In this document: piece after piece, positions 15 through 27,806 of the stretch
How positions within the stretch are numbered: position 1 is the first letter of the stretch
How the letters are laid out: every line of letters begins with the position of its first letter
Source: an uncultured archaeon
Lineage (GTDB): Archaea > Iainarchaeota > Iainarchaeia > Iainarchaeales > DATDZZ01
Direction of reading: 5' to 3'
NCBI GenBank assembly: GCA_964373795.1
Contig: CAYJVY010000005.1
Coordinates: forward strand, 23,846 to 55,845
DNA: 32,000 nucleotides
Program-made: the position numbers and the translations under genes
Notes under the pieces: generated by a model
Databases searched by the model: none
Told to the model about the DNA's origin: nothing
The model's input: the letters and a program-made list of their open reading frames with translations, nothing else

Positions 15-3000
15 ATGCCTAAAGGATTAATTGAAGGCTTGTCAACTCAAGGACAAAAAGTTTACTTAGAGGCTTTAAAGAAATTAAAAAGAGGCGAGTC
101 AATAGATGCAGTTCTAGCTTACGTTGATTCTCAAGAAATAGATAAAGATCCAGATAAGGATAAAGAACAAAAAGACTTAATTAAGCAAAGATTGAAAGAA
201 CTTGTTTCAAAGATTGCAGAAGCAACATTTTGTTCAGCTGAAAAAGGAGAAGTTCAACCAACATTGTTTGACAAGGTTTACTTTAACTGGGATTATGGCA
301 AAATTTATTCCGAAAAAGAAAAAAATTGTTCTTCAGGAGAAATTTACTGCGACGGAGTTCAATTCTCAATTGAATTAACTAAAAGACAAAAACTAGTAAA
401 AGACGTAATGGAGACAACTGGTAAAAATTATTTAAGCAGTGCAGGAAATCTAGATGTAAACAAAGTAGCAGAAAGATGCCTTGTACACGACATTGGAAAA
501 ACAGGAAATGCAATAGATGATTTAAGTAAAAGCGATTGCACTCCTTACTTGAAATCCAACGAGTTTTGGAGATTTGGAAAACTAAGTTATAGTCCTTTCA
601 AAGGAAAAGCTTACTTCTTAAAAGATGATTTAAGATTACTTGAATGGAGTAAAAAAGAAGACTTAGACAGAGTTAAGAAAAGATTAAGTGAAGCAATTAC
701 TTTAATTAAAAGCGCTCCAGATTTAAATGCTTCAACAGACAAAGATCAACTTCTAAACATTCAATCAAGGTTTAATAAATTAAAAGAATCATTACTTGGA
801 GGAGGAACAAGTGGAGAAAAAGATCCTTTAAGTGAAAATGTTTTCATTGAATTCGATCAAGCACCAAACAGTCCTCAAGGATACAATATTGGAGACGACA
901 AAGTATTAGATAGTTTAAATATTCTTTCAGCAGATAAAAGTGGTTTAACTGCTCCATACAAGCAAAACCTTAGATTAATGAAACTAGATTTATTTATGCA
1001 GTTCTTAGAAGACATTTTAGAAAACTGTTTAGTTAATGTAAGCCAATGTAAAACTCCTTCATACAAGTTTTCAAGAACAAATCAGGCATACACTAAAACA
1101 ACTGGACAAAAAGCAATTCTAACAGGATCTGGAAGAGCAGTAGATGTAAATACTGATTTATTAAACCAAGTTTTAAGTGACTTGGAAGTAAAAATCGGAA
1201 TTCCAATTAATGTTCAAGACAAAGAAGTTCAAGACTTTGTATTAGGAAATGCAATGGATGCAATTAAATTACAAGACTCTCAAAGCAATTCATTCACTTA
1301 CAGGCAATTAAGAGATTTAAGTCAATTTAATTCATACTTAATAGCTGATAACTTAAATGAAGATCTAAGAGCAGACTTTAAAGCAAAGTATGGATTAGAT
1401 TCAAGCAATGATTTCGAAAACTGGAATATTTCAGGAGACACTAATACTCCAGGAAAATATGAAAGCGAAATAAATTATAGATTAACACTAAAAGAACCTT
1501 TTAGTGATAATAATGGTGAAATAAAATATTTTAGGATTTTAAAATCCAATAGCTTTGAAGAATTAAGAAAAGCTATTGTTTCATCCCAAGAAATAGAGTA
1601 TAATTCAATCACATTCAAACCAAAACCAAAACTTAAAGCAATAAATCCAACCACATTCCAAGATATTACATTCAACGAGTCAAATTTTAGTGCTTTTAAA
1701 ACATCTTTTAACAGTCAATTGAATGAAGAATTTAAGGAAGACAAAAACAACTTAACTGTTAAAGTAAGCTATAAGTTTTCGCCAACAATTAATTCAATTG
1801 AATACCTTGATGTTAATCGTAAACAGTATTTTTACAGAGTTGCACAACCAGATGCAAATATATTAAATATGGGAATAAACTCAGATCCATATTCCGGTAA
1901 AATTAAATTTAGAACAGATACAGTCTATTTTTCAGGGAATTTAGACAATAGTATGTTTGATCAAATAATTTTGCGTATGAAGGATGAGACTAATTCCTTT
2001 TTTGATAAAAAGGTGGATGACGATTTTAAACCATTCATTGGAGGAAATGCAGTAGATGTAAATGAAATTGGTAAAATAAAACGAAAAATTAAATCACAAG
2101 TTAATGACTTTAATGGAGCATTCATAATTACAGTTGAAGCAGACTTTAATGGACATGTAAGTGGAACTAAAAAGATTGTATGGACTAAAGAAGTTGCAAC
2201 TTATAATAATTTTATATCCTTATTAGACGGTCTCGACTATGAATCAGCTCAGTTAAGCTTTAGATCAAGAATACTTCCAACTGCTTCAAAGACTTCAGTG
2301 AATTTAACTCGCTTGGAAACAGATACTGCTTCAAGTGAAGTGCAAGACAAGTTATTATATTACTTGCCTTTAGATGGAAGTCTTGGAATTGAAAACGAGA
2401 AAAGCAAAAGAAATGGATATGGAGTTACATTTAGTTCTATAGAAGGATTTACTAAAATTCCAATTCAAAAAGAATTACAAGCAGTAACTGGAACTGCTAC
2501 AGTGAAAAAGGATTACTTAGTTTCAAAAGACGGAAATGCAGGGTTTACTGACTTTTTCATGAATTTTGAAACAAAAATTAATCAAACAACTGATGGACAA
2601 TTGTTAAGATTTGTTGGAGGAATAGGAACTGGAACTCCTACTACAGCAATTTATAGTCCTTCATTCCCAGTGCCTTTAACAATGAGAGTAAATGCTCCTA
2701 CTAGTGGAAGCCTTGCAAGCGTGTTTTATAATTTAAGCAAAGCAGCAAATGAAGTTGATTCAAGCGCAAATCCAAGTCCAGCTGCATTAGTTTCTTGGAA
2801 GGTTCATGAAAGAAGCCAAGTTGCTAGAACTCAACAAGAATTAGGAGTAACTGCAATGAGTTTTACTGGAGAAGACAAAGAAGTTAATCCAGATAAATTT
2901 TATTCAAGAGCAAGAAAAGAAGAAGGAGTTTTCAGTAAAACAGTGACTGAAGGATTTGAAGCACTTGGATTGCAATGGCAAGGAACTCTTCGCCCTGGAT

Positions 3001-3407
3001 TTATTGTATTCAATGGAATTGCATTTGTTCCTCAAGGAAAAGGAGAGCTTCAATTAATTCCAAATAAAAACTCTGTAAGTGATGCAAGCATTGAAACAGT
3101 TGCATTAGGAAGCAAGCCAGCTACTGTTAAAGCATCTCAAGGAGGAAAAGTTGAAGGAGTTGTTTCATTAGATCCAACTATTGTAAGCGGAGGATTTAGT
3201 AGAGATGCAGAACCATTAAAAGAAATAGCTGCAAAAATAAAGAACGGAGAAAACATTTCCTTAGAAGAAATAATCGGATTAAATAAAGCTGGGTTTTTGT
3301 GTGCAAAAGTTGCAAGAAATGAATTAACCTTAACATGGAATGAAAACAAAGTAATAGAAACAAGTGGATTAAAACAAAAAGCAGATGCATTACTTGCAAA
3401 AAGATAA
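15..3407 (+). CDS. Giant-protein family paralog 1: only the C-terminal-type module is visible and it may be 5'-truncated by the window edge
   Basis: Uninterrupted 1130-codon ORF with no in-frame stop between nt 3 and the ATG at 15, so the true N-terminus may lie upstream. It shares ordered motifs with the three downstream giants: FC..KG...NWDYGKI, YCDGVQFSI (nt 345-371), FNSYLIADNLNEDLRADF, PGKYESEI, LLYYLPLDGSLG...GYGVTF (from nt ~2352), SPSFPVPLTMRV. A T5 tract follows the stop. Confidence 0.85.
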   Translation: MPKGLIEGLSTQGQKVYLEALKKLKRGESIDAVLAYVDSQEIDKDPDKDKEQKDLIKQRLKELVSKIAEATFCSAEKGEVQPTLFDKVYFNWDYGKIYSEKEKNCSSGEIYCDGVQFSIELTKRQKLVKDVMETTGKNYLSSAGNLDVNKVAERCLVHDIGKTGNAIDDLSKSDCTPYLKSNEFWRFGKLSYSPFKGKAYFLKDDLRLLEWSKKEDLDRVKKRLSEAITLIKSAPDLNASTDKDQLLNIQSRFNKLKESLLGGGTSGEKDPLSENVFIEFDQAPNSPQGYNIGDDKVLDSLNILSADKSGLTAPYKQNLRLMKLDLFMQFLEDILENCLVNVSQCKTPSYKFSRTNQAYTKTTGQKAILTGSGRAVDVNTDLLNQVLSDLEVKIGIPINVQDKEVQDFVLGNAMDAIKLQDSQSNSFTYRQLRDLSQFNSYLIADNLNEDLRADFKAKYGLDSSNDFENWNISGDTNTPGKYESEINYRLTLKEPFSDNNGEIKYFRILKSNSFEELRKAIVSSQEIEYNSITFKPKPKLKAINPTTFQDITFNESNFSAFKTSFNSQLNEEFKEDKNNLTVKVSYKFSPTINSIEYLDVNRKQYFYRVAQPDANILNMGINSDPYSGKIKFRTDTVYFSGNLDNSMFDQIILRMKDETNSFFDKKVDDDFKPFIGGNAVDVNEIGKIKRKIKSQVNDFNGAFIITVEADFNGHVSGTKKIVWTKEVATYNNFISLLDGLDYESAQLSFRSRILPTASKTSVNLTRLETDTASSEVQDKLLYYLPLDGSLGIENEKSKRNGYGVTFSSIEGFTKIPIQKELQAVTGTATVKKDYLVSKDGNAGFTDFFMNFETKINQTTDGQLLRFVGGIGTGTPTTAIYSPSFPVPLTMRVNAPTSGSLASVFYNLSKAANEVDSSANPSPAALVSWKVHERSQVARTQQELGVTAMSFTGEDKEVNPDKFYSRARKEEGVFSKTVTEGFEALGLQWQGTLRPGFIVFNGIAFVPQGKGELQLIPNKNSVSDASIETVALGSKPATVKASQGGKVEGVVSLDPTIVSGGFSRDAEPLKEIAAKIKNGENISLEEIIGLNKAGFLCAKVARNELTLTWNENKVIETSGLKQKADALLAKR

Positions 3408-4057: not shown

Positions 4058-4068
4058 AAGGCAAAAAA

Positions 4069-4485: not shown

Positions 4486-4496
4486 CACTAACTCCC

Positions 4497-4518: not shown

Positions 4519-4594
4519 TTTCTGATTACAACAACTCAAGGTTTACCACGTGCCAACTAAAAAATAAACTAATTATAAAAAATAAGGAAAGCCT

Positions 4595-6185: not shown

Positions 6186-9100
6186 GTGGGAATAGCTGAA
6201 GGAATTTCAAAGTTTTATTATTCTCTTGAAGCAAAATACTACGGAGTATTGGATAAAATTAATGAAAAAATTCCAATCTATGCATTAATTGATCCAATTG
6301 ATAGATTTGCTCCAAGTTTTGCATTACTAATACTAATTTTATTGGCCTTGCTTTTGTTTGCAGGAGTAACTTTATTGAATACTATCCCAATTCAAGTAAC
6401 TGAAAATGATTTAACTGTAATTGTTTTAGATGAAAAAGGAAGTGTATTAGAAGAAGCAGATGTAAAAGTAGTGTTTCAATCAAAGGATTTCCCTAAAAAA
6501 ACAAATAAAAAAGGAGAAGCAATTTTCAGTGTTCCAAGCAATGCACAATTAAGTATTGAAATATCTAAAGATAAATTTGAAGCAATTAAAAAAGAAATTA
6601 AATTTCAAGGAAAAAATCAAATCGAGCAAGTAAACTTAATTGCAGTAAAAGAAGAAGAACAACAAAAAATTTTCTTTGTAAAAGATGAAAGAGGAAAAGC
6701 ATTAAAGGATGCAAGAGTAACTTTTACTTGCAGTGATAAAAGTGCTAGGCAACCAGATGCTCAAACAACTGATTTTAGTGGAAAATTAAAAATAGCAGTT
6801 CCAAGTAATTGCGGAGAACTAACTTTTTCAGCTAGATTGGAAAAATTCAAAAACTTGGATGGAGTAAAGGCAGATAAAACAACAATTGTTTTACAGCCAG
6901 ATGAAGCAAGGGTTGGAAAAATAACTGTTGGAATAACTTCTAATGGAAAAAATTTGGATGGAGTAGAAGTTCATGTTTACAGATTTAATGAAGAAGAATT
7001 AGGCCCGGAAAAAACTGTTCACTCAGCAAATGGATTAGCAGTATTTGATAACTTGTTTGCAGGAGAATATATTGTAAGAGTTAATGCTGAGTCAGGGTTT
7101 GGTCCATTCAAGTCGGAAAAAATTTCTTTAACTTCAGGGCAAGAAAAAAATACTCAAGTAAAACTGGATAAAAAACCTATTGGAAAAATATTAGTGAAAG
7201 TTCTTCAAGAAAAAAATAAATTGCCTTTAGAAAAAGCTAAAGTGAAATTAAGGAAAGGAAGTGAAGAACTTGGGGCAACTGATTCAAATTCAGATGGGAT
7301 TGCAGTTTTTGATATAACTGAGGATTCGGAATACGAAGTAGTAGTTGATCATTCAGATTATTTAGTGAGAGCTGTTTCAGGAGTAAAAAAAGATTTGCTT
7401 AGAGAAATTTCTTTAGAGAAATTCACTGGAGAAAACGGTGGAACATTAAAAGTTAAAGTAGTGGATTCAAAAGGAAATTCAGTGCATGGAGCAATAGTTG
7501 CATTATATGACATGGACGCAAAACAAGTAAGCATTTACGAAGAACAATCAACTGATTTAAACGGAGTGGCAAGTTTTACTAGAGTGCAAAGCGGAAACTA
7601 TAAAGCTTTGGCTTTTAAGGAAAGCGCTAAAGGCTCTAGTGATGCCCAACGCTTTGATAGAAGGTTGTCTGCTCAAATTACTTTAAGAGCAACTTTGATA
7701 ATTGAAGACAGTCAAGTAGAAGTAATAGTTAAAGATGAAGAAGGAGTAGCTGTTTCTCAGGCAAGAGTTACATTGTTTGATGAATTTAATGACAAAGTAG
7801 TGGGATCGGATTTCACTAGTGCTGAAGGAAAAATTGTGTTTGAAAATATTCCTGCAGATAAAGCTGTTTACGTTAAAGTAACAAAAGAGAAAACTTCTTT
7901 TTATTCTGCTTCAAAAAAAGTTTTACCAAAAGAAACTGTTTCATTTAATGCATTCATTGAAAAAAGGCCTCCACTAGGAGAAGTGAAAGTAAAATTTTTA
8001 GGATTATATAAAGCAGGAGAAAAAGTTGAATCATTAAAAGAAGGAGTTGTAACAAATGTTGCAACAGGAGAAAGATATGCAGCTAGGTTTAGAGTAATTA
8101 TTCCTGAAGAAAATGATTACAGTGAAGTAGGCTTGCATGTTAGAACTGGAACAAAGGAAATTCTGGAAAAAGATTCTTTATTCATTAAAGCAATTAATGG
8201 GCCTTTAGCTGAAGTAAAAAAAGGATTATCTTTTAACCCTAGTTCAGGTTATCAAGAGGATTCAAAAAATGTTGCATTCAATGATGCGAAATGGGTTGAA
8301 TTTGTTTGGAACAAGCCAACTCCAGGAATATATGAATTTGAAACATTAATTGAAGTAAAACAAAACGCTAAACTAGATGAAAAGCTAAGCATTTTTTACA
8401 GAACATGGGCAATTGAAAAAGGAGATAGAAAAAGAGATCCTGAAATGCCTCCATCAAAAAATCATCCTTTTTACGATGACACTGAAGAAGTATTATATCA
8501 AGTAGGAATTACAACTTTATGTGATGACGCGTTTTGCTTTGATGCACAAATTCTAAATGTAGGAGAAAAAATAGTGAAATCCTTAGCAGAAGAATTAACT
8601 TACTCTGCAGATGTTTTTTCAAACTATAACTTGAAATTCAATTTATTGAATAACACGGAGTTTGGTGAAAACCCTCACACTAATGCGTTTTTGAGAATTA
8701 GAAACCCTGAAGAAAACCTTGTGTTTGAAAGATTTGAATTAAATTTAGGAGACAAGGGAAAGAAAAGCGGTACACTAAATGCTTCTGCTTTTGAAGATCA
8801 ACAAGTAGAAGTATTTGAAGCAAAAGAAAGATTGATTGCAGACATTGATTTTAAAACTCAAAAATCTGGAAACGGAGCAATAGTAATTGAATTAGTTTCC
8901 GATAACCAAGTAGTATTCAGTAAACAAATAATTGTAAACGTTTCTTCAACTAAAGACTTGGATGTAAAATTCGATCCAAGAGAACTTGCATCTGGAGTGC
9001 AAAACAAGTTAAGCATTGAAGTAAGAGACAAATTAACTGGAGTTGAAGTAGAGAAAGCATTAGTAAGCGTTTTAGACAGACATAAAATAGAGTTAACTAA

Positions 9101-16700: not shown

Positions 16701-19700
16701 CTGAGGTAAAAATTGCTTCAGAAATCGTTGCATTTGATCCATTGCCCCCAAATCCATTAAAATTAGAGTTGCAAACAATTGGAATAGATGAAGACACTGC
16801 AACAATTAAAGCAACTAATTTAATTGATGCTCCATTGAAATTAAAGAAAGCATTTGTTTCAGGGTATTTTAAAAGCTATTTAGATGAAGCTGCAATGAAT
16901 AGATTCTTGCAAGGATTTGTTGAAACAACTGAGTTAAAAAAAGACGAAGAACAAAATTTGAGTTTATTGAAAGCAAAACTAGTTAATGCATTACAATTAT
17001 TTGAACCAGATAAAGTTAAAGGAGAAATAAATTTAGTGTTTGAATCAGTGAAACTTGGAAAGACTTGGGCTTTCAGCATTCCATTTGAAGTAAGCGTTGA
17101 AATAGGAAAAGGTCCTTCAGCAGATAATTGCTTGGTTTTAGAACCAGTTCCATTGTCAAGCATTCCTAAATGGAATTCAGTTACTCAAGGGGAAAGAATT
17201 GCAAATGAATTCATTTTATATAATTCTTGTAAAATTAATGGCAAACCAGTTGAAGTAAGAAACTTGAAAGCAGGAATTGAATGGAAGGGAAACAAGATTG
17301 GAGATGTGCAGTTAACTTTAACTGATCAAGAAGAACATACAGCTGTTCCGCCTGAAACTTTAAGAGAAGGAGAATTCACTAATCCTTTTATTGAAATAGT
17401 TAAAGCACTTCAAAAAGGAAGTTCAGGCCCGCAATACACTGGAATTTTGTATTTCACTCCAAAAGCAGGACATGAAGGAGAGGATACTTCTTTCACTGTA
17501 AAAATTAGAGCAGAAATTGGAACAAATCAAGGCCCTAAAGAAATTTCCACTACTCAAGACATTACTGGAAACATTAAAGTAATTAATTTAAAGGACTGTT
17601 TAGAGTTAACCCCTACCCCAGAAGAAGGATTAAAGATTCCAGCTACTTCTTTAGAAGGAGAAGGATTTTTTGAAATTGATTCAACTAAATGCGGCCCTGC
17701 AACAATTCAAATAAGTATTTGCAGAGGAGACGATGGTTGTAGAGGAAACCCTCAAATAAAAGAAGGCGGATTAAGAGTTGAACCAAAAACATTTAATTTA
17801 AGTAAATCAAAGCAAAAGCAAAAAATTAAGTTAAAAAAAGAAGAAGGAATTCCAGGAATTTACGGAGTAACAATCTTTGCTTCTCCAGGTGGAAGTAATT
17901 TTGTTCCAGTGAAAACACTAGATGTATTAATAGAACCAAATTTAGATGAACATTATTTTTGGTTAGACAAATATGAATTCAGCGTGATTGGAAGAGAAGG
18001 AAAAGATTCAACTGCGTTGTTTAACACTCAATACAAGGAAAATGTTTCAGTTGAAGCAAAAAGAAAATATCATGGCCAAGCAGCAGGAAATAATGCAACA
18101 AAAGCTTTTTGGACTGGAGCAATTGCAGGAGTTGGAACAGGAGCTGCAACAGTTGGAGCATTAATTGCAGCAGAAGCAACTGTTCCAGTAATTGGATGGA
18201 CAGCAGCAATTGTAACAATAGTTGTATGGGCAGCTGTTTCATTTTTAACTTATCAAAAAAATAAAGATAAAGCAAACGAATTAATTACTAAAAACTTTGA
18301 AGACTATGTAATTGAATTAACTTCAGATAGAAGAGATGTATTAATTGAAGGATTAGATAATAAAATTAAAGCTGAATGGAATACAAAATACAATAATGTT
18401 TTCTCTGATTCAAGAACTGGAAAAGTAACCCAAATAAATGCATTAAAATTTTTAAACGATGGAAATCTTTCCAAGCCTCAACTAAGTTATGGAATACTAA
18501 ACGTTAAAGCAATTGAACATATTCATGGAGATCCAACTCATAAAGCTGCAAGAGTTTTATGTGGAAACAGCGATTTTTGGCATTTCAATATTCCAAGTTC
18601 TTGTAGCGGTGCAAGAGATGAATTAGTTTCAAAGAAATTCCATGTAAGATTTAAAACTCAAGAAGAACCAGAGCCATTGCCTGAATTAAATTTTGAAACA
18701 TTTGAATGCAAAGCAGGAGCTTTAAGAGGGGTTACAGGAAAAGGAGCTAATCCAAAAATTAAATTGGATTGGGATTGGGATAAAATTAAAGTTGATTCAT
18801 GTGATGCAAACAATCCTGAAACATTTTACTGTGATTCAACTCAGTTTTCAATTTCTTTAGTGAAAAGATTAAATAAATTAAAAGAATTTTTCGAGAGAAA
18901 CCAAGGAGTATTTGAATGCCCTCCTTCAATAAGCGATGCATACGATAAAGCTAACAATCAAGAATCAAGTAATGTAGTTAAAAAAGACTTTATTGGAATT
19001 TCAAAACTTGAAACAAAATTCTATTCAATTGAAAACGATGCAAACGCAATTGTATTCTTAGACAATAAAACAACTTCAGATCAATCAATTGATTTAACAG
19101 TAAATTTGAAAACACTAGACAATGAAGTAATTAAAGATGTTTGCGAGAAAAAAGCAATTGCATTAAAGCCTGGAACAAATAAAGTTGGATGTGAATTTAA
19201 AGCAATTCAAAAAGGAAATTACTTTATTGAAGCATTAATTACTAATAGTTCAACTCAAAACTTGGATCCATTTGAACCAACTATTTCAATAATAGTTCAA
19301 GATGAGCCTTTAACTTCAACTGTAAATTCGACTTGTAAAGTAATTAAAACAACTGAAGACTTGCAAGGATCTCCAATAATAATGGCTTTCATTGAAGCAC
19401 AAGAAAAAGCAGGAAAAAAAGTAGAATATTCAACTGATACTCCAACAGAGGATTGGATTAATAATAAAGAAGAATTATTGAATACAATTAAATTTGATGC
19501 ATTTTTAATGAAGGACGGATATTCAAGTGATTTCAGAAAAGACTTCATTAGATTTTATACTACTCAAGCACTCCCTAAAGCTCCAGACTACTTTGATAAC
19601 ACTACTGCAGGAAAAGGAAGATTTAAAGATTTCTTTGAAGACAATGAAAAACTTGTTTTCACTCAAAAGTTTTTTGAAAGAAATTCAACTCTTGATTCGC

Positions 19701-20783: not shown

Positions 20784-23700
20784 ATGCCTTTAAACGAAGA
20801 ATCTTTCATGGCTCCAGCTCCGGAAAATAAGTTACTTGAATTATTGAAAGAAAAAAAAATACTGATTGCAGGAGTAATAGCTGTAATTGTTTTAATTGCA
20901 GTAGCTTATTTTTTTGTCTTGCCTTTGCTTTCACAAAAAAATTCAAATGTAATTCTTTCATTAAAAGATCAAGAAGGAACAATTCTTCCTTCAACAACTG
21001 TTTCAATTAAAGTTAATGAAACTGTAAAAAATTTTTCAAGCGATTTAAAAGGATTAATTCCTTTAACTGTTCCATTGAATGCAAAAATAAGTGTTTCAGC
21101 TGAATTAGATGGATTTGAAAAAGTTAATCAAAGTTTGACTGCAAGCAATGCAGAAATGAGTAAAACAATTACTTTTTACAAGATTTCAAAGCTTTTAAGT
21201 AAAACAATTGTTTTACAAAACCTTGCAGGAGAAATGATTAACAAGGAAGGGAAAATAAATTTTTCTTGCTCTAATTCAAAAATCACTGCACCTCAACCAA
21301 TTGACACAACAACAAGTGGAGCAATTAGGGTTACGCCTCCAGAAGGATGTGGGGATTTAATTGCAGAAGTAATAGTGAAAGGATTTGCTTCAAAGGATTC
21401 AGTGAAAATAGTTAATGCAACTGAAGTAATAGAGTTAAGCGCTGAAAAACCTAAAACAGGAACTATAAAAATTTCAGTTAAAAACAAGGCTTCAGAAGCA
21501 TTAAATGGAATTACTGTAAAACTTTTTGCAGACAGCGGAGTAATTAATTCAGTTATTTCAAACACAGGAATAGCAGAATTTAATGAAGTAGAAGTAGGAG
21601 AATACTTTGTTTTAACTGAATCAAATCCAGATTATGTTAGCGGGCGAACAGAAAAATTTCAAGTAAAAGAAAACGAAGTAACTGAAAAAAACTTAGTGTT
21701 AGAAAAAGAAAGAACTGCAACACTAGAATTTGAAGTAACAGATAAAAACAGTCAAGCAAAAATTTCAAACGCAAAAGTCAGAATTGAATTGCAAGAAAAA
21801 AAGTTTTTGGAAGAAAAAAATTCTGACAAAGACGGAAAAGTTGTATTCACTTTATTTGATGTAGGAAAATTTAAAGTAACTGTATTACATGAAGAATTTT
21901 TATTTGATGAAAAAGAAATTCAAGTCAACAAAGGCGAGAATAAGGAAAAAATTTCTTTAGAAAAGCTTTCCCCTGAAAACAGTGGAAGAGTCTTAGTTAC
22001 AGTTAAAGATGAAGACAATGAAGTAGTGGAAAACGCTAGAGTAAATATTCTTGATGCGAAAACAAAGTTTTTGTATCCCTTGCCTAAGGTGTATTTCACT
22101 AATGCAGAAGGAAAAGTAGAGTTTTCAGGAGTAAAAGAAGGAAAATATTTTGTAAGAGTTTCAAAAGCAAGAACTGAAGCTGACTCAAAAGCATTAAATG
22201 TAAGCAAAAGAGGAATAACAGAATATGAAATAAAAATGGTTATAGGAGAAGGAGTTGTAAGCATTAAAGCAGTTGATGCAGATAAAGCTCCAGTGCCAAA
22301 TGCTTCAGCTGAATTCTTTGATGAAAAAGGAAAATCTTTAGGAAAAATTGATTTAGGCCCAGAAGCTGAAAGAGATTTCACTACTAAAGCGGATAAAAAA
22401 GTTTTCATTCGAGTTTCTGCTTCAGGATATAGTAGTTATGTAACTTTATTACATGAAGTAATTCAAAACAGAAAAATAAATGTTTTAGCTCAGTTAGAGA
22501 AAACAATTCAAGGAACAAAACCTTCAATTGATTTTATAGGATTATTTAATTCAACTGATTCAGATAAAAGAATTGAAAAACTTGAAGCAGGAAATGCTTA
22601 TATTGCAAAATTCCAGTTAAAGATTCCAAAAGGATTAAAGCTAAAAAATGCAGGAGTCTTTGTTAAAACAGGCGAGGATTCATTAGTTCAAAACGATAAT
22701 ATTTTCATTAAAGCAATTAATGCTCCAAACTCTTCAAAGATTAGGGGAACAACTTTTAACGAGCCAAAAGGATATGCAATTGATTCACAAAACTTAACTT
22801 CAGAAAACGCTAAATGGGTTCAAATAATTTTGCAAGACCCTGAAGAAGGAATTTACAATATTGCAGTAGAATTAAGTGTAAAAATTAGAACTGTTCCAGG
22901 GGAAAGACTTTCAATTAATTACAGAGCATTTGCTGAAAACGATGCAAGAGAAACTTTAAGAGATCCTGAAGACAAAGAATTAGGTTTAGCGGAAAACTCT
23001 GCAAACAAAGAAGGCTTGTATGCTAATGCAACTATTTTAACTTATTTAGAAGGACAAAAAGAGGAATGCACTGAAGAATTTTGTTACGGAGGAGTAACAT
23101 TAGAGGAATCAGTTTCAAGGCTTACTTTAAGACAACAGCCATTTGAAGTATTTGTTTTTTCAGAAAACAAATTATTTTTCTATTTAATAAATAATTCTGC
23201 AAAAGATTATTTAGATCCAGAAATCAGGTTTAAAAGTTTGGATAAAGCAATTAAAATTACTTCATATAAAATAACTGATGCTTCTGCAAAACAAGTAAGC
23301 AAAAACAATCAAGAATTATTTGAATTCAATGAAAAACTTGGAAACTTTTCCAAAAACAGAGCAATTAAAGGAGAAATTGATTTACAAGCACTTGACCCCG
23401 AAGAAAAAGAATTAAAGCTTCAAATAGTGAACAAAGGAAACATTGTTTTTGAAAGAGAAATAAAATTTAATGCAAAAGTTTCAAACAAATTAACTATTAA
23501 ATCATCTCCAACATTTTTGCCTGCATTCAAGAAAAATGTTTTAAACGTTGAATTAATTGATGAACAAGAATTAGGTTTAAGTAATACTAAAGTGAAATTC
23601 AAATTAATTTCTCCTGAAAGAATTGAAAGATTCATTGGAAGTGAGTTAACAGACGGATTAGGAAAAGCTGTATTCAAAATAGGAAATTTAAGTCCTCAAT

Positions 23701-26700
23701 CAAAACTCAAAATCGAAGTAGAAAAAGCAGGATATCAATTCACTCCAGTACTAGTTCCAGTGGAATTAGATTTAGTTGACATTACTCCTTCAGAGGTAAG
23801 CTTGGCTTTAGAGTCTTTAGGAATGAGAAGAAAAGAAAAAACAGTTGAAGCATTAAACAAAATTGATTTACCTTTACAAATAACTGATGCAAGACTAATA
23901 GGAGTGTTTAGGCAAGTAGATGTAACTGCAATGGAAGGACATTTGAAAAACAATGTAGTAGGAAAAATTCTCTCTCCAGGAATTCCAGAAAAAATCAAGC
24001 CATTAATTGAAGTAAGCATTTCAGAAGGATTACAAGAAGACTTAGAATCAGCTTCCTATGTTGGAGAAATTTTGTTAGTGTTTTCAAATAAAACAATTGG
24101 AAAGCAATGGCTGAAAAGAATTCCATTCAAATTAGATTTAGGTTTAGGAGGAGAAATAAATAATGCTCCATGTATTTTCTTTGATACTTCAGAAAAAATT
24201 GAAAAAACTATTTTACAGTCAAGCTTTGAAGAAAAATTCACTATAGTTAATAGATGTAAAAACACTGCAGGAAACAGTAAACTGCAAAACTTGAAAGCAA
24301 AAATTAATTGGACTGGAAAAGACGGGCCAATAGGAATAGTTTCATTAGAAGTAACTGAAACTGCAACTCAAAACAAGGTATTCAATCCATTAATTGAAGG
24401 AGAAGAAATAATTTTTGCAGCTCCGTTTAGAAATGAAAGTGGATTAGATAGTTCAAGTTATTCAGCTATTTTAAGTTTCACTCCAAATGAAGACACAATA
24501 AATAAAAAAGCAGAATTTCAAGTAGAGTTTTTCGGAGAAGCTTTAACAGATCAAGGAAAAGAAATTATTAGATCAAAGCCAACTCCTTTAACAGTAAAGT
24601 TATTGAATACTAATTTACAGAACTGCATTAAATTTGATACAGAAGAACAAAGAGGAAGAGTTTTATTAAAACCAGATGCAAATGAAGCAATCTTTAAAGT
24701 CGATTCAAGTGAATGTAAAAACGTGGAATTAGAGTTAAAGATTTGTGGAGGAGACTCAGATAAATGCAGAGGAAACGCAGTAGATGGAGGAATAAAAGTT
24801 GCTCCATGGAGTTATGGAAAAATTTTAGAAAAAGAAGTTTCATTCAAGGTTTCCAGGCCAACAGTAGAATTTGTTCCAGGAATTTATGGAATTGAAGTAT
24901 TTGCAAGACCTGTGCAAAAATCTGGCGGCACTCCTCCATGGCAATTAATAGGAGTAATTGATGCAATTCTTGATGTAAAAAAAGAAGATACAGATAAATA
25001 CCTGAATTTAGAAAAATATGAATTCACTTTAGTTAATCCAACGAAAAAAGATGAAACAGCTTTATTCAATGAAAGATTAATGGAAAATGTTGATGTAACA
25101 GCTGATTACTGTGCATGGGATAAAGCAAAAAGATATGCAAACACTTTTGTAAAAATAGGAGAATGGTTTGATGAATTAAACGAATCTCCTACTGGATGGA
25201 TAATGTTTATTGCAGAAATAGGAATCGCAGCAATAGTAATCGATGTAGTTCTAGATTTATTAGATCAAATATTTGGAACTGATTGGGCTGACGGGTTTTC
25301 AAAAATCTTAGGAAAACTAGAAATATTAGATGACTGTGAAGACAGAGATCACACTGGAACACTTCAAGACTATGTATTAAATTTAGTGGAAAATGGAGGA
25401 AGTACAAAACTTGTTTCATTAGAGGGAAGAGTTAAATCAAAACCAGTTATAGGTCCAGCAGGAGAAGCAAGAATTTCAAGGCCAAATGATTTTCCATTAG
25501 AAAAACTTGGAATTGAATTGGAAAATAAATCTCTTGAAGAAGGATTAATTCATTACGATATTTTGGAAATAAGTGGAACAGAGCATGTAAGAGGAGCAAG
25601 GCCTTACAGTGGCGGTGCACATTTAAAGTGCAGAGATGGATTTGGTCCATTCAATGTTAGAGGAGCTTGTGGAGGTTATTCTACTCGCACTAAAACAGAA
25701 AAATTTCATGTAAGAATTAACACTATTTCTCCTACTCCAAAATTAAGAGAAATTAGATTAAATGAAATTTCTTGTATTGGAGATGGAAAACAAGGAAAAA
25801 CAGGAAAAGATGCTCTTCCAAAAGTAAAGTTAAACTGGAGCTGGGATGAAAAAACTCAAAACGGAATTTCAATTAATGAATGCGATGCAAACAATGAAAA
25901 AGCAGTTTACTGTGATGCAACTCAGTTTTCAATAATGTTTGCAAAAAGATTGAATGCAATAAGTGATTTTTTAGAGAAAAACAAAAATAATTTAACTTGC
26001 CCTACAGACAGTACTTCAAAAACTGAGGAAAAAAATAATTCAAAAAAAGAGTCAAAACCAGTATTTTTAACTAAAGAAAAATTCGGGGCAACAGAATTTG
26101 AAACAATCTTTAAAGGAGTGGAAAACAATTTAATTGTAAGAGTAAAATATGAAAACGATTTAAAACAAAAAATTGATTTAAATGCAGTTATAACTTTAAA
26201 CAAATTAATTATTGAAGCAGGAGAAGAAAGAGAAGTAAGCAAGTGTAAAAAAGATTTAAGCGTTAACTCAAAAGACTTTGGAGTAATTGAATGCCAATTC
26301 AATGACTTAGCAAAAGATGAATACTTTGTATCTCTTTCAACTGAATCGCAAAACAAAGCTGATTTAGATGATTGGAATCCAAAAGAAAACATAATTGTAA
26401 TAAGCGAGCCAACTAGATTGCAGGGATGCTGGCTTCCAAAAACAACTGCTCCTTTAGGAGGCGAACCAACTTTAATAAAATTCTTGGAAAACTCTTCAAA
26501 CATTACTTATACTGCAGACATTAATTCAAAAGAACAATTAACTAACATGCTTCACTTTAATGCATTGCTAATGAGGGATGGCTTTTCAAGTGATTTCAGA
26601 CAAGATTTTGTAAATTATTATAAAAACCAGTCTTTCATGAATGCCTATCCATGGTTTTTCAATAATACTGGTGGAAGAAATATTGAAAAATATTTTTCAG

Positions 26701-27806
26701 ATCAAGATAGAATGAGGTTTTCAAGAAAATACACTCCTTCAAATAAATTAGACAAGCCAGGAATTTATGAAATTCAAATAAGCATATTATTTGACAATGA
26801 ATGGAGTTTATTTACTAATTCAGGTAATCCAAATGCAAGAATTGGGGTTACATTTAATCACTTACAGTTACCAAAACCTAATTCAGTGCTTTACTCAATG
26901 CCTTTAAATGGATTTGTTGGAAAAGAAGGCCAAACATTGAATAGACAAGGATATGGAACTCAATTTGATGTAGTGCAAGATGAAGTAAAATTATCTGAAG
27001 GATTTGAAATAGTGAAAACCTTGAAAGATTCTTCTAGTAGTGCGTTAACAAAAGTTAAAGTGGAAAGGAAAAACGATTTACAGTCTTTAAACACTAATCC
27101 AAAGTTTAGAGGAAACTTGTTAACAATAAATAAAGTAAATGAAAACGTGAATGAATTGCTTTTCTCTCCAAATTATGCTACTCCTGTTTTAATGAAGTTT
27201 AATCAAGACAAAACTGAAAAGCCTTTCACAATGCATTACGGAGTAACAGAAGGAACTCAATTAGTTAACACTGGAGCAAATTTAACTTACTGGAATGCAG
27301 CAGTTAACTGCTTTGACTTTGGAGGAGAACCTTTAGTGAAAAGATTCAAAGTTGCTCCTGACAGAGCTTCAAAACCAGAAGATGGATTGCCAAACCATGA
27401 AAACATTTATGCATTGCAATGGTTGAAAGCAGTTAAAGGAGGAAATATTTTCTTGCAAACAATTTACTTTGTTCCAACAATAGGAAATTATAATTTAAAA
27501 GCAGTTTCACCTCTTTCAAATATTTTATTTTACTCTCCAGAAAAACCTACTGGCTCGCAAACAATTGAGTTAAGCGGAATTAGTGGAATGAATTTAAACA
27601 GTAAAGGCAGAACAGAAGTAGTTGATTCCTTGCAAGACATTTTTTCATTAGTTGAATCAGGAGATGTATGCGTTGGAAACAATGGTGAAAGCTTTTACTG
27701 GAATTCTCAAAAGCTTTACACTTTTAAAAACCCTCAAGCAAACATTATAGATATTAATTCAATTGCATTCGAAAAAGAACAAAGAAAAGAATGCATTCTA
27801 AATTAA
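20784..27806 (+). CDS. Giant membrane-anchored surface-type protein, paralog 4 (2340 aa)
   Basis: Uninterrupted 7.0-kb ORF starting 22 nt after giant 3, with GAGTGA (Shine-Dalgarno-like) 7 nt upstream. N-terminal anchor ILIAGVIAVIVLIAVAYFFVLPLL (nt 20859-20930). It is collinear with paralog 3: about 46% identity in one 68-residue block I aligned by eye (PENSG..V.VKDEDN...FLYP...FSG.KEG.YF). Confidence 0.95.
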   Translation: MPLNEESFMAPAPENKLLELLKEKKILIAGVIAVIVLIAVAYFFVLPLLSQKNSNVILSLKDQEGTILPSTTVSIKVNETVKNFSSDLKGLIPLTVPLNAKISVSAELDGFEKVNQSLTASNAEMSKTITFYKISKLLSKTIVLQNLAGEMINKEGKINFSCSNSKITAPQPIDTTTSGAIRVTPPEGCGDLIAEVIVKGFASKDSVKIVNATEVIELSAEKPKTGTIKISVKNKASEALNGITVKLFADSGVINSVISNTGIAEFNEVEVGEYFVLTESNPDYVSGRTEKFQVKENEVTEKNLVLEKERTATLEFEVTDKNSQAKISNAKVRIELQEKKFLEEKNSDKDGKVVFTLFDVGKFKVTVLHEEFLFDEKEIQVNKGENKEKISLEKLSPENSGRVLVTVKDEDNEVVENARVNILDAKTKFLYPLPKVYFTNAEGKVEFSGVKEGKYFVRVSKARTEADSKALNVSKRGITEYEIKMVIGEGVVSIKAVDADKAPVPNASAEFFDEKGKSLGKIDLGPEAERDFTTKADKKVFIRVSASGYSSYVTLLHEVIQNRKINVLAQLEKTIQGTKPSIDFIGLFNSTDSDKRIEKLEAGNAYIAKFQLKIPKGLKLKNAGVFVKTGEDSLVQNDNIFIKAINAPNSSKIRGTTFNEPKGYAIDSQNLTSENAKWVQIILQDPEEGIYNIAVELSVKIRTVPGERLSINYRAFAENDARETLRDPEDKELGLAENSANKEGLYANATILTYLEGQKEECTEEFCYGGVTLEESVSRLTLRQQPFEVFVFSENKLFFYLINNSAKDYLDPEIRFKSLDKAIKITSYKITDASAKQVSKNNQELFEFNEKLGNFSKNRAIKGEIDLQALDPEEKELKLQIVNKGNIVFEREIKFNAKVSNKLTIKSSPTFLPAFKKNVLNVELIDEQELGLSNTKVKFKLISPERIERFIGSELTDGLGKAVFKIGNLSPQSKLKIEVEKAGYQFTPVLVPVELDLVDITPSEVSLALESLGMRRKEKTVEALNKIDLPLQITDARLIGVFRQVDVTAMEGHLKNNVVGKILSPGIPEKIKPLIEVSISEGLQEDLESASYVGEILLVFSNKTIGKQWLKRIPFKLDLGLGGEINNAPCIFFDTSEKIEKTILQSSFEEKFTIVNRCKNTAGNSKLQNLKAKINWTGKDGPIGIVSLEVTETATQNKVFNPLIEGEEIIFAAPFRNESGLDSSSYSAILSFTPNEDTINKKAEFQVEFFGEALTDQGKEIIRSKPTPLTVKLLNTNLQNCIKFDTEEQRGRVLLKPDANEAIFKVDSSECKNVELELKICGGDSDKCRGNAVDGGIKVAPWSYGKILEKEVSFKVSRPTVEFVPGIYGIEVFARPVQKSGGTPPWQLIGVIDAILDVKKEDTDKYLNLEKYEFTLVNPTKKDETALFNERLMENVDVTADYCAWDKAKRYANTFVKIGEWFDELNESPTGWIMFIAEIGIAAIVIDVVLDLLDQIFGTDWADGFSKILGKLEILDDCEDRDHTGTLQDYVLNLVENGGSTKLVSLEGRVKSKPVIGPAGEARISRPNDFPLEKLGIELENKSLEEGLIHYDILEISGTEHVRGARPYSGGAHLKCRDGFGPFNVRGACGGYSTRTKTEKFHVRINTISPTPKLREIRLNEISCIGDGKQGKTGKDALPKVKLNWSWDEKTQNGISINECDANNEKAVYCDATQFSIMFAKRLNAISDFLEKNKNNLTCPTDSTSKTEEKNNSKKESKPVFLTKEKFGATEFETIFKGVENNLIVRVKYENDLKQKIDLNAVITLNKLIIEAGEEREVSKCKKDLSVNSKDFGVIECQFNDLAKDEYFVSLSTESQNKADLDDWNPKENIIVISEPTRLQGCWLPKTTAPLGGEPTLIKFLENSSNITYTADINSKEQLTNMLHFNALLMRDGFSSDFRQDFVNYYKNQSFMNAYPWFFNNTGGRNIEKYFSDQDRMRFSRKYTPSNKLDKPGIYEIQISILFDNEWSLFTNSGNPNARIGVTFNHLQLPKPNSVLYSMPLNGFVGKEGQTLNRQGYGTQFDVVQDEVKLSEGFEIVKTLKDSSSSALTKVKVERKNDLQSLNTNPKFRGNLLTINKVNENVNELLFSPNYATPVLMKFNQDKTEKPFTMHYGVTEGTQLVNTGANLTYWNAAVNCFDFGGEPLVKRFKVAPDRASKPEDGLPNHENIYALQWLKAVKGGNIFLQTIYFVPTIGNYNLKAVSPLSNILFYSPEKPTGSQTIELSGISGMNLNSKGRTEVVDSLQDIFSLVESGDVCVGNNGESFYWNSQKLYTFKNPQANIIDINSIAFEKEQRKECILN
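20946..22493 (+). other. CarboxypepD_reg-like repeat array in giant 4
   Basis: Example repeat units: GTIKISVKNKASEALNGITVKLF...EVGEYFVLTES; GRVLVTVKDEDNEVVENARVNILD...AEGKVEFSGVKEGKYFVRVS; GVVSIKAVDADKAPVPNASAEFFD. Confidence 0.65.
25191..25277 (+). other. Mid-protein hydrophobic segment of giant 4
   Basis: TGWIMFIAEIGIAAIVIDVVLDLLDQIFG occupies the same relative position as the hairpins of giants 2 and 3. It contains charged residues, so the number of membrane passes is unclear. Confidence 0.45.

What the first reader, a model, noticed from the sequence alone, without database searches (positions are those of the whole stretch)
15..27806. Tandem array of four deeply diverged giant paralogs occupying ~78% of the window
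Four co-oriented ORFs (>=1130, 2498, 2344 and 2340 codons) share a collinear set of sequence blocks. Shared central blocks include (V/F)(R/K)TG...(D/N)(S/N)(L/I)(F/L)IK(A/E)(I/V)(N/I)(G/A)P...(K/R)G(L/T)(S/T)FN.P.G, AKW(V/A), and C(D/T)(D/E)(A/T/E)FC(F/Y). Shared C-terminal blocks include YCD(A/S/G)(T/V)QFSI, P(F/L)Y(Y/S)MP(F/I/L)(D/N)G and NYATPV(I/L)(M/L)K. They are nevertheless strongly diverged: giants 3 and 4 are about 46% identical in the one block I aligned by eye, giant 2 is lower, and giant 1 is lowest. Giants 2-4 are packed with 44- and 22-nt spacers, which makes a 21.6-kb three-gene operon. I recognise only the N-terminal CarboxypepD_reg-like repeats. The remaining ~1,750 aa per protein match nothing I know. 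A multi-copy, membrane-anchored, Cys-containing, repeat-fronted family in an AT-rich archaeal genome is what one would expect of a cell-surface, host-contact or adhesion apparatus, for example in an episymbiotic DPANN-type archaeon. That function is inference.
Basis: partly seen in the sequence, partly recalled or inferred. Interest (0 to 1): 0.85.

Follow-up and report, generated by a model that had tools for sequence, protein, structure and literature searches.

The report
Tandem giant surface proteins of Iainarchaeota
The window carries a real tandem array of four very large, anciently diverged, membrane-anchored proteins from a small DPANN archaeon (Iainarchaeota); the array belongs to a lineage-wide gene cluster that also encodes five small membrane proteins, and it most likely builds the cell's outer surface structure, although nothing like it has been characterised.

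Summary
ORF coordinates, lengths and the 44- and 22-nt spacers are exact. G2, G3 and G4 are collinear full-length paralogs (24-32% identity, E from 1e-62 to 0). G1 runs off the window start, is only a C-terminal piece, and is only weakly related (22-25%, E 1e-8).

Each giant has an N-terminal signal-anchor helix and roughly 15 beta-sandwich domains. The first part gives transthyretin-like CarboxypepD_reg hits; the rest is Ig/MG-like by AlphaFold2 and Foldseek. A Gly/Ala-rich hydrophobic segment follows, then a ~770-aa beta-rich C-terminal domain. That domain matches nothing in Pfam, NCBIfam or PDB.

The family has 816 representative clusters, almost all labelled Candidatus Iainarchaeum or "archaeon".

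New findings:
- The paralogs form two old classes with conserved gene order: A (G2) upstream, B (G3, G4) downstream.
- In 48 of 65 related loci the last giant is followed directly by small polytopic membrane proteins TM1-TM4 (window 28558-30272, including TM5). These are better conserved than the giants.
- Toxin-antitoxin pairs are inserted here between G1 and G2 and between G4 and TM1.

Best reading: a conserved heteromeric cell-surface assembly. Adhesion or host contact remains plausible but untested. I rate it a new variant of a known kind.

The parts
3..3407 (+). G1: C-terminal >=1134 aa of a highly divergent giant paralog, cut by the window start
   Evidence: Frame is open to base 3. YCDGVQFSI at aa 115. 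22-25% identity to the C-terminal domains of G2 and G4, E 1e-8. No close ortholog in 65 related loci.
6186..13682 (+). G2: class A giant (2498 aa), the 'upstream' type
   Evidence: Nearer to the upstream gene than to the TM1-adjacent gene in 26 of 34 loci. Best BLAST hits are upstream-position genes.
13727..20761 (+). G3: class B giant (2344 aa), the 'downstream' type
   Evidence: Nearer to the TM1-adjacent gene in 33 of 34 loci.
20784..27806 (+). G4: class B giant (2340 aa), an old duplicate of G3
   Evidence: Nearer to the TM1-adjacent gene in 32 of 34 loci. G3-G4 distance is 0.64, against 0.59-0.60 from G3 to class B proteins of other genomes.
13766..13834 (+). G3 N-terminal hydrophobic helix (about aa 14-36), a signal anchor. 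Equivalent helices occur in G2 (about aa 45-70) and G4 (about aa 26-50).
   Evidence: Kyte-Doolittle mean >3.0, preceded by Lys residues. In G2 and many homologs a conserved ~40-aa tail precedes the helix.
13838..15400 (+). G3 transthyretin-like / CarboxypepD_reg repeat region (aa 38-558)
   Evidence: PF13620 E 5e-24 with three stretches. SpaA and PPC hits also fall here.
15401..18067 (+). G3 central region (aa 559-1447): a string of about 8-9 Ig/MG-like beta-sandwich domains with conserved Cys pairs
   Evidence: AlphaFold2 pLDDT 86.8, all-beta. Foldseek matches only multi-Ig strings and macroglobulin MG domains, TMq 0.11-0.20.
18104..18256 (+). G3 mid-chain Gly/Ala-rich hydrophobic segment (aa 1460-1510), long enough for a helical hairpin
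   Evidence: In 44 of 46 class B and 25 of 30 class A relatives the same region reaches hydropathy >1.2 (28 of 46 and 4 of 30 exceed 1.6); where the segment exceeds 1.6 it lies a median ~190 aa upstream of the YCD motif.
18440..20758 (+). G3 C-terminal domain (aa 1572-2344): a family-defining beta-rich module carrying the YCDxTQFSI, DGYSSDFxxDF, PFYxMPFDG, SPxYATPV and WNP motifs
   Evidence: Alignments A2 and A3. AlphaFold2 pLDDT 75, pTM 0.61. Only local beta-sandwich Foldseek hits. No PDB sequence hit. 816 representative clusters match the profile.
28558..28923 (+). TM1: 121-aa polytopic membrane protein, first gene of the conserved cassette
   Evidence: Found directly after the last giant in 48 of 65 loci, mostly 40-55% identity (range 28-56%). 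Three hydrophobic peaks. No Pfam or NCBIfam match.
28931..29275 (+). TM2: 114-aa polytopic membrane protein
29368..29628 (+). TM3: 86-aa membrane protein, the best conserved of the cassette (mostly 45-64% identity; range 34-64%)
29631..29942 (+). TM4: 103-aa polytopic membrane protein
29943..30272 (+). TM5: 109-aa protein with two N-terminal helices and a charged tail. Its position and architecture are conserved but its sequence is not.
   Evidence: Compared by eye with L015 13582-13926. No tblastn hit at E<=1e-4.
30310..30825 (-). Syntenic 171-aa coiled-coil protein. Whether it belongs to the system is uncertain.
   Evidence: Same position and strand in L015 and 12 other loci.
31025..32000 (+). 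Syntenic ~500-aa protein of unknown function, running off the window end. Whether it belongs to the system is uncertain.
   Evidence: 22-35% identity (mostly 29-35%) to the same-position gene in 30 loci. No Pfam or PDB match.

Best explanation
The array is the expanded copy, in this genome, of a gene cluster conserved across Iainarchaeota. The cluster encodes a heteromeric cell-surface (envelope) assembly.

Proposed mechanism:
1. Each giant is inserted by an uncleaved N-terminal signal-anchor helix, with a short N-terminal tail in the cytoplasm.
2. About 1400 aa are exported as a chain of roughly 15 beta-sandwich domains. Transthyretin-like CarboxypepD_reg domains come first, followed by Ig/MG-like domains braced by conserved Cys pairs.
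3. A Gly/Ala-rich hydrophobic mid-chain segment brings the chain back to a membrane.
4. A ~770-aa beta-rich C-terminal domain, which defines the family, follows.
5. Two anciently separated paralog classes (A = G2; B = G3 and its old duplicate G4) keep a fixed gene order and most likely co-assemble. The divergent G1 is a further, accessory copy.
6. The co-oriented small polytopic membrane proteins TM1-TM5 provide the membrane platform or assembly factor.

Shown here: paralogy, domain make-up, hydrophobic segments, taxonomic range, positional orthology and synteny.

Inferred: topology, co-assembly, operon status and the structural envelope role. The surface may also mediate contact with other cells.
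For: - Collinear paralogy.
- N-terminal helix with Lys residues before it, and a conserved ~40-aa pre-helix tail that argues against a cleaved signal peptide.
- Pfam beta-sandwich hits.
- High-confidence all-beta model of the central region, with only multi-Ig/MG structural neighbours.
- Conserved Cys residues.
- Mid-chain hydrophobic segment recurring across the family.
- 133 confirmed matches in species-representative genomes, nearly all labelled Iainarchaeum or archaeon. These include I. andersonii and two complete chromosomes, each with an adjacent pair.
- 816 representative clusters, typically 2300-2700 aa long.
- Class A/B split with conserved order: G3 33/34, G4 32/34, G2 26/34.
- TM1-TM4 lie directly after the last giant in 48 of 65 loci, sometimes overlapping its stop codon, and have higher identity (mostly 40-60%; TM4 lower) than the giants (~30-35%).
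- The locus sits in a stable housekeeping neighbourhood (PolB, methionine aminopeptidase).
- No relatives on viral contigs.
Against: - There are no expression, proteomic or imaging data.
- No sequence similarity to any known S-layer family. At ~260 kDa and Cys-rich, the giants fall outside the usual S-layer profile of 40-200 kDa with few sulfur amino acids, as summarised in bioRxiv 10.1101/2021.04.28.441871.
- Topology rests on hydropathy only. The mid-chain segment is weak in class A (only 4 of 30 exceed 1.6) and contains acidic residues in G4.
- Conserved gene order in a single phylum could partly reflect shared ancestry rather than function.
- The tree is neighbour-joining without bootstrap support.
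Confidence: 0.5

Rival explanations
1. Dedicated adhesins or a host-contact apparatus of an episymbiotic DPANN cell. The beta-sandwich chain would be an extender stalk and the C-terminal domain the ligand-binding tip, binding glycans or proteins on a partner cell or surface.
For: - DPANN origin.
- The stalk-of-Ig-domains architecture is typical of fibrillar adhesins, and PrgB Ig-like domains are among the structural neighbours.
- The best local structural match of the C-terminal domain is the carbohydrate-binding domain of Wzt, along with glycosidase accessory sandwiches.
- The giants evolve faster than the neighbouring membrane proteins.
- Copy number varies: arrays of three or more genes and secondary loci occur.
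Against: - The cluster is at one conserved chromosomal position with positionally orthologous classes across deeply diverged genomes. Adhesin repertoires are usually patchy and variable.
- No recognised adhesive domain was found.
- The Wzt match is local (TMq 0.11, E 2.6e-5).
- The host dependence of Iainarchaeota is itself unproven (my own background knowledge).
- This reading is not exclusive of the best explanation.
Confidence: 0.3
2. Alpha-2-macroglobulin / thioester-protein-like protease traps anchored to the membrane, defending the envelope.
For: Pfam bMG3 (E 8e-11 in G2) and weak MG4 hits. Many A2M, complement and CD109 chains are among the Foldseek neighbours of the central region.
Against: - No CxEQ thioester motif in any of the four proteins.
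- No alpha-helical thioester domain: both models are essentially all-beta.
- The Foldseek matches have TMq 0.11-0.18 with rmsd above 50 A, meaning only the repeated sandwich fold is shared.
- No A2M Pfam domains other than MG-type were found.
Confidence: 0.03
3. Surface-displayed polysaccharide-binding or polysaccharide-degrading enzymes, with the C-terminal domain as a new catalytic or carbohydrate-binding module.
For: Local structural hits to the Wzt carbohydrate-binding domain and to beta-sandwich accessory domains of GH2, GH3 and dextranase. Invariant acidic and aromatic residues in the C-terminal motifs DGYSSDFxxDF and PFYxMPFDG.
Against: The hits are to accessory sandwiches, not to catalytic barrels. 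No glycoside hydrolase, lyase or esterase family was detected by Pfam or NCBIfam. No PDB sequence match even with a profile.
Confidence: 0.07
4. Cargo of a mobile element or virus, or a contingency locus for surface variation generated by recent duplication and recombination.
For: Four toxin-antitoxin pairs lie inside or beside the array. Tandem paralogs are present.
Against: - The paralogs are anciently diverged, with only short 67-81% DNA patches shared.
- Chromosomal synteny with PolB and methionine aminopeptidase is conserved.
- No relatives on viral contigs.
- No integrase, transposase or tRNA was found in the window.
- The toxin-antitoxin pairs look like secondary insertions into intergenic gaps that are short in other genomes.
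Confidence: 0.03

Closest known systems
Fibrillar adhesins / giant Ig-like-repeat surface proteins of bacteria (for example the tandem Giant1-5 genes of Apilactobacillus kunkeei, PMC12863079, seen)
   Same: Very large extracellular proteins built from strings of beta-sandwich domains, encoded by consecutive co-oriented genes that take up a large share of a small genome.
   Different: - No sequence relationship.
- The anchor here is an N-terminal transmembrane helix plus a mid-chain hydrophobic segment, not a cell-wall anchor.
- The paralogs fall into old classes with fixed order.
- The cluster includes conserved small membrane proteins.
- The C-terminal ~770-aa domain is an undescribed family.
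Archaeal two-component S-layers (SlaA/SlaB of Sulfolobales) and the 101-kDa S-layer protein of Ca. Micrarchaeum harzensis (bioRxiv 10.1101/2021.04.28.441871)
   Same: Beta-rich, acidic (pI 5.3-5.8), sequon-bearing envelope proteins. In Sulfolobales they are encoded as adjacent, different partners that co-assemble, one of which anchors the other in the membrane (my own background knowledge).
   Different: - No hit to any S-layer model in Pfam or NCBIfam.
- About 260 kDa each, with 22-24 Cys residues.
- Both partners carry their own anchor.
- Lattice formation is untested.
Alpha-2-macroglobulin / complement / CD109 family
   Same: Macroglobulin-type beta-sandwich domains in series (Pfam bMG3; Foldseek).
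   Different: No thioester motif or thioester domain, no CUB or receptor-binding domain, and no global structural superposition.
Predicted archaeal secretion / membrane-remodelling complex around arCOG01314 (Makarova, Galperin and Koonin 2015, PMC5898192)
   Same: A computationally predicted cluster that combines Ig-like 'S-layer-like' membrane proteins with several small 2-5-TM membrane proteins.
   Different: Its defining components are absent from the window and from the examined relative locus L015: the DUF4350 protein, the MoxR-type AAA+ ATPase and the vWA protein. The Ig-like proteins of that cluster are small.
SPEARE giant protein of Ca. Nanohaloarchaeum antarcticus (PMC6642349, listed)
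   Same: A giant surface protein of a DPANN archaeon, proposed to act at the cell-cell interface.
   Different: As I recall that work, SPEARE is defined by serine protease, adhesion and restriction-endonuclease domains. None of these was detected here, and it is a single gene, not a tandem paralog array.

Membership tests
CarboxypepD_reg / transthyretin-like repeat proteins (PF13620) | Pfam PF13620 match above the gathering score | tested here: met
   G2 100.7 bits, G3 85.0, G4 77.7 against a cut-off of 32.3, with 3-4 stretches each, all within about the first 600 aa. This describes a domain only and covers about a quarter of each protein.
Alpha-2-macroglobulin / thioester-containing proteins | Series of macroglobulin (MG) domains | tested here: inconclusive
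   bMG3 scores 42.3 bits (cut-off 34.9) in G2 only; MG4 is sub-threshold. Foldseek neighbours include A2M and complement chains, but with TMq 0.11-0.18.
Alpha-2-macroglobulin / thioester-containing proteins | Thioester motif (CGEQ-type) within an alpha-helical thioester domain | tested here: not met
   No C-x-E-Q in G1-G4. Both AlphaFold2 models are essentially all-beta, with no helical toroid.
Known archaeal S-layer protein families (S-layer Pfam/TIGR models, PGF-CTERM-anchored glycoproteins) | Sequence match to an S-layer model, or a PGF-CTERM / C-terminal transmembrane anchor | tested here: not met
   No such hit in Pfam or NCBIfam. No PGF motif at the C-terminus and no C-terminal hydrophobic helix.
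S-layer (functional sense) | Forms a paracrystalline lattice and is among the most abundant cell proteins | not testable with these tools
   Needs proteomics and electron microscopy or cryo-ET.
Fibrillar adhesins | Stalk of repeated Ig-like domains plus a cell anchor | tested here: met
   About 15 beta-sandwich domains and an N-terminal transmembrane helix.
Fibrillar adhesins | A recognisable adhesive (ligand-binding) domain | tested here: inconclusive
   No adhesive-domain family was detected. The only pointer is a local structural similarity of the C-terminal domain to the Wzt carbohydrate-binding domain (E 2.6e-5, TMq 0.11).
arCOG01314-associated predicted secretion system (PMC5898192) | DUF4350 membrane protein, MoxR/GvpN AAA+ ATPase and vWA-domain protein in the neighbourhood | tested here: not met
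   None of these was found among the window's flanking genes or the genes of locus L015.
The family itself (Iainarchaeota giant proteins with the YCDxTQFSI C-terminal domain) | Full-length match to the C-terminal domain profile, with the conserved motifs in collinear order | tested here: met
   G2, G3 and G4 align end to end with 15 external homologs. G1 meets this only weakly.

The most novel reading that the evidence does not exclude
The giants are intercellular bridging or membrane-insertion proteins. The N-terminal helix would hold the protein in the archaeon's own membrane and the ~15-domain beta-sandwich chain would span the gap. The reach would be about 50-60 nm if fully extended, assuming ~4 nm per domain; that figure is my inference. 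The Gly/Ala-rich, fusion-peptide-like mid-chain hairpin is flanked by Cys residues in some relatives, and it would insert into the membrane of a partner cell. The A/B pair and the TM1-TM5 platform would then form a previously unknown apparatus for DPANN cell-cell contact or cytoplasmic bridging.
Probability: 0.1. Interest if true: 0.85.

Novelty: new variant of a known kind. Interest (0 to 1): 0.55.

Why it matters
Iainarchaeota are uncultured DPANN archaea. Their envelope and their mode of interaction with other cells are unknown. This cluster takes up about 25 kb of genomes that are only about 1-1.2 Mb in the two complete chromosomes found. It is conserved at one locus across deeply diverged members and consists entirely of unannotated proteins. 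It is therefore the obvious candidate for the main surface structure of these cells. It also gives concrete targets for metaproteomics, cryo-ET labelling and structure prediction of complexes: the A and B giants and TM1-TM5. In addition it defines a new ~770-aa domain family (816 representative clusters) and a new conserved set of small membrane proteins, neither of which appears in Pfam or NCBIfam.

Tried and rejected
- Sequence searches of G3, and of the C-terminal profile, against PDB found nothing.
- NCBIfam found nothing for the giants or for TM1-TM5.
- Pfam at E up to 5 found nothing credible for TM1-TM5 or for the syntenic ~500-aa protein. A PDB sequence search of that protein gave one chance-level hit.
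- Foldseek of the C-terminal model gave only local beta-sandwich hits against PDB and low-probability hits against BFVD.
- Word-indexed homolog searches were insensitive, returning 5, 15 and 2 hits. The exhaustive profile search was needed to see the family.
- The first genome scan, with the 18-sequence alignment, failed for lack of a conserved stretch. It worked with the 6-sequence alignment.
- An exact look-up of G3's contig failed.
- I tested whether P0018 (1133 aa) is a full-length G1 ortholog. It is not.
- The apparent 'class C' grouping of G1 with other long branches in the tree is probably long-branch attraction, because G1 has no strong BLAST partner.
- Rejected after testing: alpha-2-macroglobulin membership, the arCOG01314 secretion system, the Micrarchaeota S-layer protein as a relative, and viral origin.
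- Five literature searches found no description of the family.
- The tool's promoter and terminator scan was not run because it models bacterial signals.
Full report
**1. Observation**

The window is AT-rich (GC 0.29-0.35) with a strong purine excess on the + strand across the array. Four co-oriented ORFs lie at 15..3407, 6186..13682, 13727..20761 and 20784..27806.

The first ORF's frame stays open to base 3, so G1 is only the C-terminal >=1134 aa of a longer protein. The spacers are 44 nt and 22 nt. The G2-G4 block spans 21.6 kb.

BLASTP results:
- G3/G4: 32% identity over 2373 columns (E = 0).
- G2/G3 and G2/G4: 24-30% in two collinear blocks (E 1e-62 to 2e-102).
- G1 against G2/G4: 22-25% over about 300 C-terminal residues (E 1e-8).

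G1 has YCDGVQFSI exactly and degenerate forms of the other C-terminal blocks. DNA-level similarity between G3 and G4 is limited to short patches of 67-81% identity, so the paralogs are old.

**2. Anatomy of a giant**

Hydropathy shows one strong N-terminal helix in G2, G3 and G4, preceded by Lys residues. In G2 and in many homologs, a conserved ~40-residue motif (MGI..L..Y..LE..YY..LD.I....P.Y..VDP.D) precedes the helix. A tail of that length fits an uncleaved signal anchor better than a signal peptide; this is my inference.

Pfam recognises CarboxypepD_reg, SpaA, Big_1 and SdrD_B in about the first 600 residues, plus one bMG3 hit at G2 939-986. It finds nothing beyond that.

The central region (G3 559-1447) was modelled with a 34-sequence alignment. 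The model has pLDDT 86.8 and is an all-beta string of sandwiches. Its pTM is low (0.47), as expected for beads on a string. Foldseek returns only other multi-Ig strings at TMq 0.11-0.20:
- ciliary central-apparatus proteins,
- alpha-2-macroglobulin, complement and CD109 MG domains,
- PrgB,
- mastigoneme,
- Nup210.

A Gly/Ala-rich hydrophobic stretch follows:
- G3 1460-1510 is long enough for a helical hairpin.
- G4 1468-1499 contains acidic residues.
- G2 has several weaker stretches.

Across relatives the same region reaches hydropathy >1.2 in 44 of 46 class B and 25 of 30 class A proteins (>1.6 in 28 of 46 and 4 of 30); where it exceeds 1.6 it lies a median ~190 residues upstream of the YCD motif. 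In several relatives it is flanked by Cys residues.

The C-terminal ~770 residues form the family-defining module, with invariant D/F/Y/P/G/R/W/C positions. The AlphaFold2 model has pLDDT 75 and pTM 0.61, and is mostly beta with a few helices. Foldseek finds only local sandwich matches: the Wzt carbohydrate-binding domain (E 2.6e-5) and glycosidase accessory domains, at TMq about 0.11. Nothing meaningful turned up in BFVD, and the profile has no PDB sequence match.

Each giant has 22-24 Cys, many of them conserved in pairs. None has a thioester motif, a real LPxTG signal (one chance LPPTG mid-chain in G2), PGF-CTERM or a C-terminal helix. pI is 5.3-5.8, with 16-27 N-glycosylation sequons in G2-G4.

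**3. Who has it**

Named homologs are hypothetical proteins of 'Candidatus Diapherotrites archaeon' or 'archaeon' MAGs.

A motif-seeded scan of species-representative genomes gave 133 tblastn-confirmed matches in 65 kept loci. Nearly all are labelled Candidatus Iainarchaeum or archaeon. They include I. andersonii AAA011-E11 and the complete chromosomes CP010424.1 (AR10) and CP064981.1 (taxonomy). A few records labelled Chloroflexi, Thaumarchaeota or Micrarchaeota also appear and are probably mis-binned or mislabelled.

An exhaustive profile search found 816 representative clusters (545 at E<=1e-30), typically 2300-2700 aa long. None of the relatives is on a viral contig.

The closest relatives are only 31-39% identical.

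**4. New context: a conserved cluster**

In almost every locus the giants occur as co-oriented tandems. Directly after the last giant, sometimes overlapping its stop codon, come four small polytopic membrane proteins. These are homologous to window ORFs 28558-28923, 28931-29275, 29368-29628 and 29631-29942. This arrangement holds in 48 of 65 loci, and identities (mostly 40-60%; TM4 lower) exceed those of the giants.

A fifth small membrane protein is conserved in position but not in sequence (window 29943-30272). The following genes come next in many loci:
- a coiled-coil protein on the minus strand (30310-30825),
- a ~500-aa unknown protein (31025 onward, running off the window),
- family B DNA polymerase,
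- methionine aminopeptidase.

None of the small proteins matches Pfam or NCBIfam. Each has 2-3 hydrophobic peaks.

In this window a PIN/MazE-like pair on the minus strand (27814-28457) has been inserted between G4 and TM1. Three further toxin-antitoxin pairs separate G1 from G2: MNT/HepT, MazE-like/PIN and VapB/PIN.

**5. Paralog classes**

I built a neighbour-joining tree of the C-terminal 750 residues of 116 giants. It separates a class containing G2 and most upstream-position genes (class A) from a class containing G3, G4 and most genes adjacent to TM1 (class B).

Distances across 34 loci that have both positions:
- G3 is nearer the TM1-adjacent gene in 33.
- G4 is nearer the TM1-adjacent gene in 32.
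- G2 is nearer the upstream gene in 26.

The G2 exceptions are lineages in which class B is itself duplicated or in which only class A is present. BLAST best hits agree.

G3 is as close to class B proteins of other genomes (0.59-0.60) as it is to G4 (0.64), so the G3/G4 duplication is old. G1 is equidistant from everything (about 0.9) and has no strong partner. Its grouping in the tree is probably long-branch attraction.

Arrays of three or more genes and secondary loci also occur elsewhere, for example L019, L053, L001 and L040.

**6. Interpretation**

These features point to a core heteromeric cell-surface assembly anchored in the membrane:
- a fixed A-then-B order,
- tight linkage to better-conserved small membrane proteins,
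- a stable housekeeping neighbourhood,
- an all-beta, Cys-braced ectodomain.

TM1-TM5 would serve as the membrane platform or assembly factor. I put this at about 0.5.

The adhesion or host-contact reading is compatible and not excluded (about 0.3). However, the conserved, positionally orthologous organisation is not what a variable adhesin repertoire usually looks like.

I consider the other readings unlikely:
- A macroglobulin-like protease trap is unlikely because the thioester motif and domain are absent.
- An enzyme reading has only accessory-domain structural hits behind it.
- A mobile or viral origin is contradicted by synteny and by the viral scan.

The most novel reading still open is that the fusion-peptide-like mid-chain hairpin inserts into a partner cell's membrane, which would make this an intercellular bridging apparatus (about 0.1).

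**7. Comparison with known systems and novelty**

The nearest known kinds are giant Ig-repeat surface proteins and fibrillar adhesins, including the tandem Giant1-5 genes of Apilactobacillus kunkeei (PMC12863079), and two-component archaeal S-layers.

The S-layer protein of the sister lineage Micrarchaeota is a different 101-kDa protein. The arCOG01314-associated predicted secretion system also combines Ig-like and small membrane proteins. It is defined by DUF4350, MoxR and vWA components, which are absent here.

Five literature searches found no description of this family or cluster.

I rate it a new variant of a known kind:
- a new C-terminal domain family,
- a dual-anchor architecture,
- old heterotypic paralog classes,
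- a new linked set of small membrane proteins.

I score interest at 0.55. The cluster is a solid, testable lead on the unknown envelope of an uncultured phylum. Giant beta-sandwich surface proteins in DPANN genomes are not surprising in themselves, though, and the function remains inferred.

Noticed in passing
window 3659-5989 (+) and 27814-28457 (-): Four toxin-antitoxin pairs: MNT (3659-4057) with HepT/HEPN (4069-4485); MazE/AbrB-like (4635-4832) with PIN (4826-5227); VapB (5306-5596) with PIN (5597-5989); and, on the minus strand, PIN (27814-28209) with MazE-like (28206-28457). They occupy exactly the two intergenic gaps (G1|G2 and G4|TM1) that are short in most related genomes, so they look like secondary insertions into the conserved cluster.
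   Followed up: partly
window 28558-30272: A cassette of five small membrane proteins (121, 114, 86, 103 and 109 aa; 2-3 hydrophobic helices each) with no Pfam or NCBIfam match. TM1-TM4 are mostly 40-60% identical (TM4 lower) across 48 loci. TM1 and TM3 show a faint mutual similarity (27% over 41 aa, E 8e-4), which hints at internal paralogy.
   Followed up: partly
window 31025-32000 (+) and L015 14584-16089: A conserved ~500-aa protein of unknown function, always a few genes downstream of the giants and upstream of PolB. By eye, the L015 ortholog has a degenerate P-loop-like 'SGGTSEER' and a 'VFVLPDCERF' Walker-B-like stretch reminiscent of HerA/FtsK-type ATPases. No database support was found for this.
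   Followed up: partly
window 30310-30825 (-): A 171-aa protein with an acidic Glu/Pro-rich linker and a C-terminal coiled coil (weak DUF7310 hit). It is conserved in position and strand in 13 related loci.
   Followed up: partly
G3 aa 1460-1510 (window 18104-18256); relatives L002, L009, L012, L015: The mid-chain hydrophobic segment is Gly/Ala-rich and resembles viral fusion peptides in composition. In several relatives it is bracketed by Cys residues (C.W upstream, D.C downstream, or CPPC within), which suggests a disulfide-clamped hairpin. G3 itself lacks the flanking Cys residues.
   Followed up: partly
C-termini of G2, G3 and G4 (window 13671-13679, 20750-20758, 27792-27803): A conserved Cys lies 2-4 residues from the C-terminus (…QCIR, …RCIG, …ECILN). 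It is also present in homologs and is probably paired with the conserved Cys in the 'VCV.N.G' motif about 40 residues upstream. G4's CILN happens to look like a CaaX box.
   Followed up: no
window 13683-13726: The 44-nt G2/G3 spacer contains a T6 run 13 nt before the G3 start codon. Oligo-T tracts can terminate archaeal transcription, so G2 and G3-G4 may not be strictly co-transcribed.
   Followed up: no
window 21920-22408 (-) and 25922-26503 (-): Antisense ORFs of 162 and 193 aa lie inside G4. They have no Pfam match and lie opposite a conserved coding frame, so they are almost certainly not genes.
   Followed up: yes
L024, L027, L054 and protein P0163: Contigs carrying this archaeal cluster are deposited under bacterial or unrelated labels (Chloroflexi bacterium, Thaumarchaeota archaeon, Candidatus Woesebacteria bacterium). 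This is likely mis-binning in the source MAGs.
   Followed up: no
L001 (GCA_053536055.1, JAIYIA010000020.1) and L040: Some genomes have a second array that is not followed by the TM1-TM4 cassette: a 2609-aa and a 2444-aa giant, preceded by what looks like a split giant of 1162 + 814 aa. These copies form their own sub-clades within class B.
   Followed up: partly
whole window: There is a strong purine excess on the coding strand across the array (GC skew up to +0.28, AT skew about +0.18). AT skew turns negative where the minus-strand toxin-antitoxin pair and the Phe/Leu/Ile-rich small membrane-protein genes lie (28001-30000).
   Followed up: no
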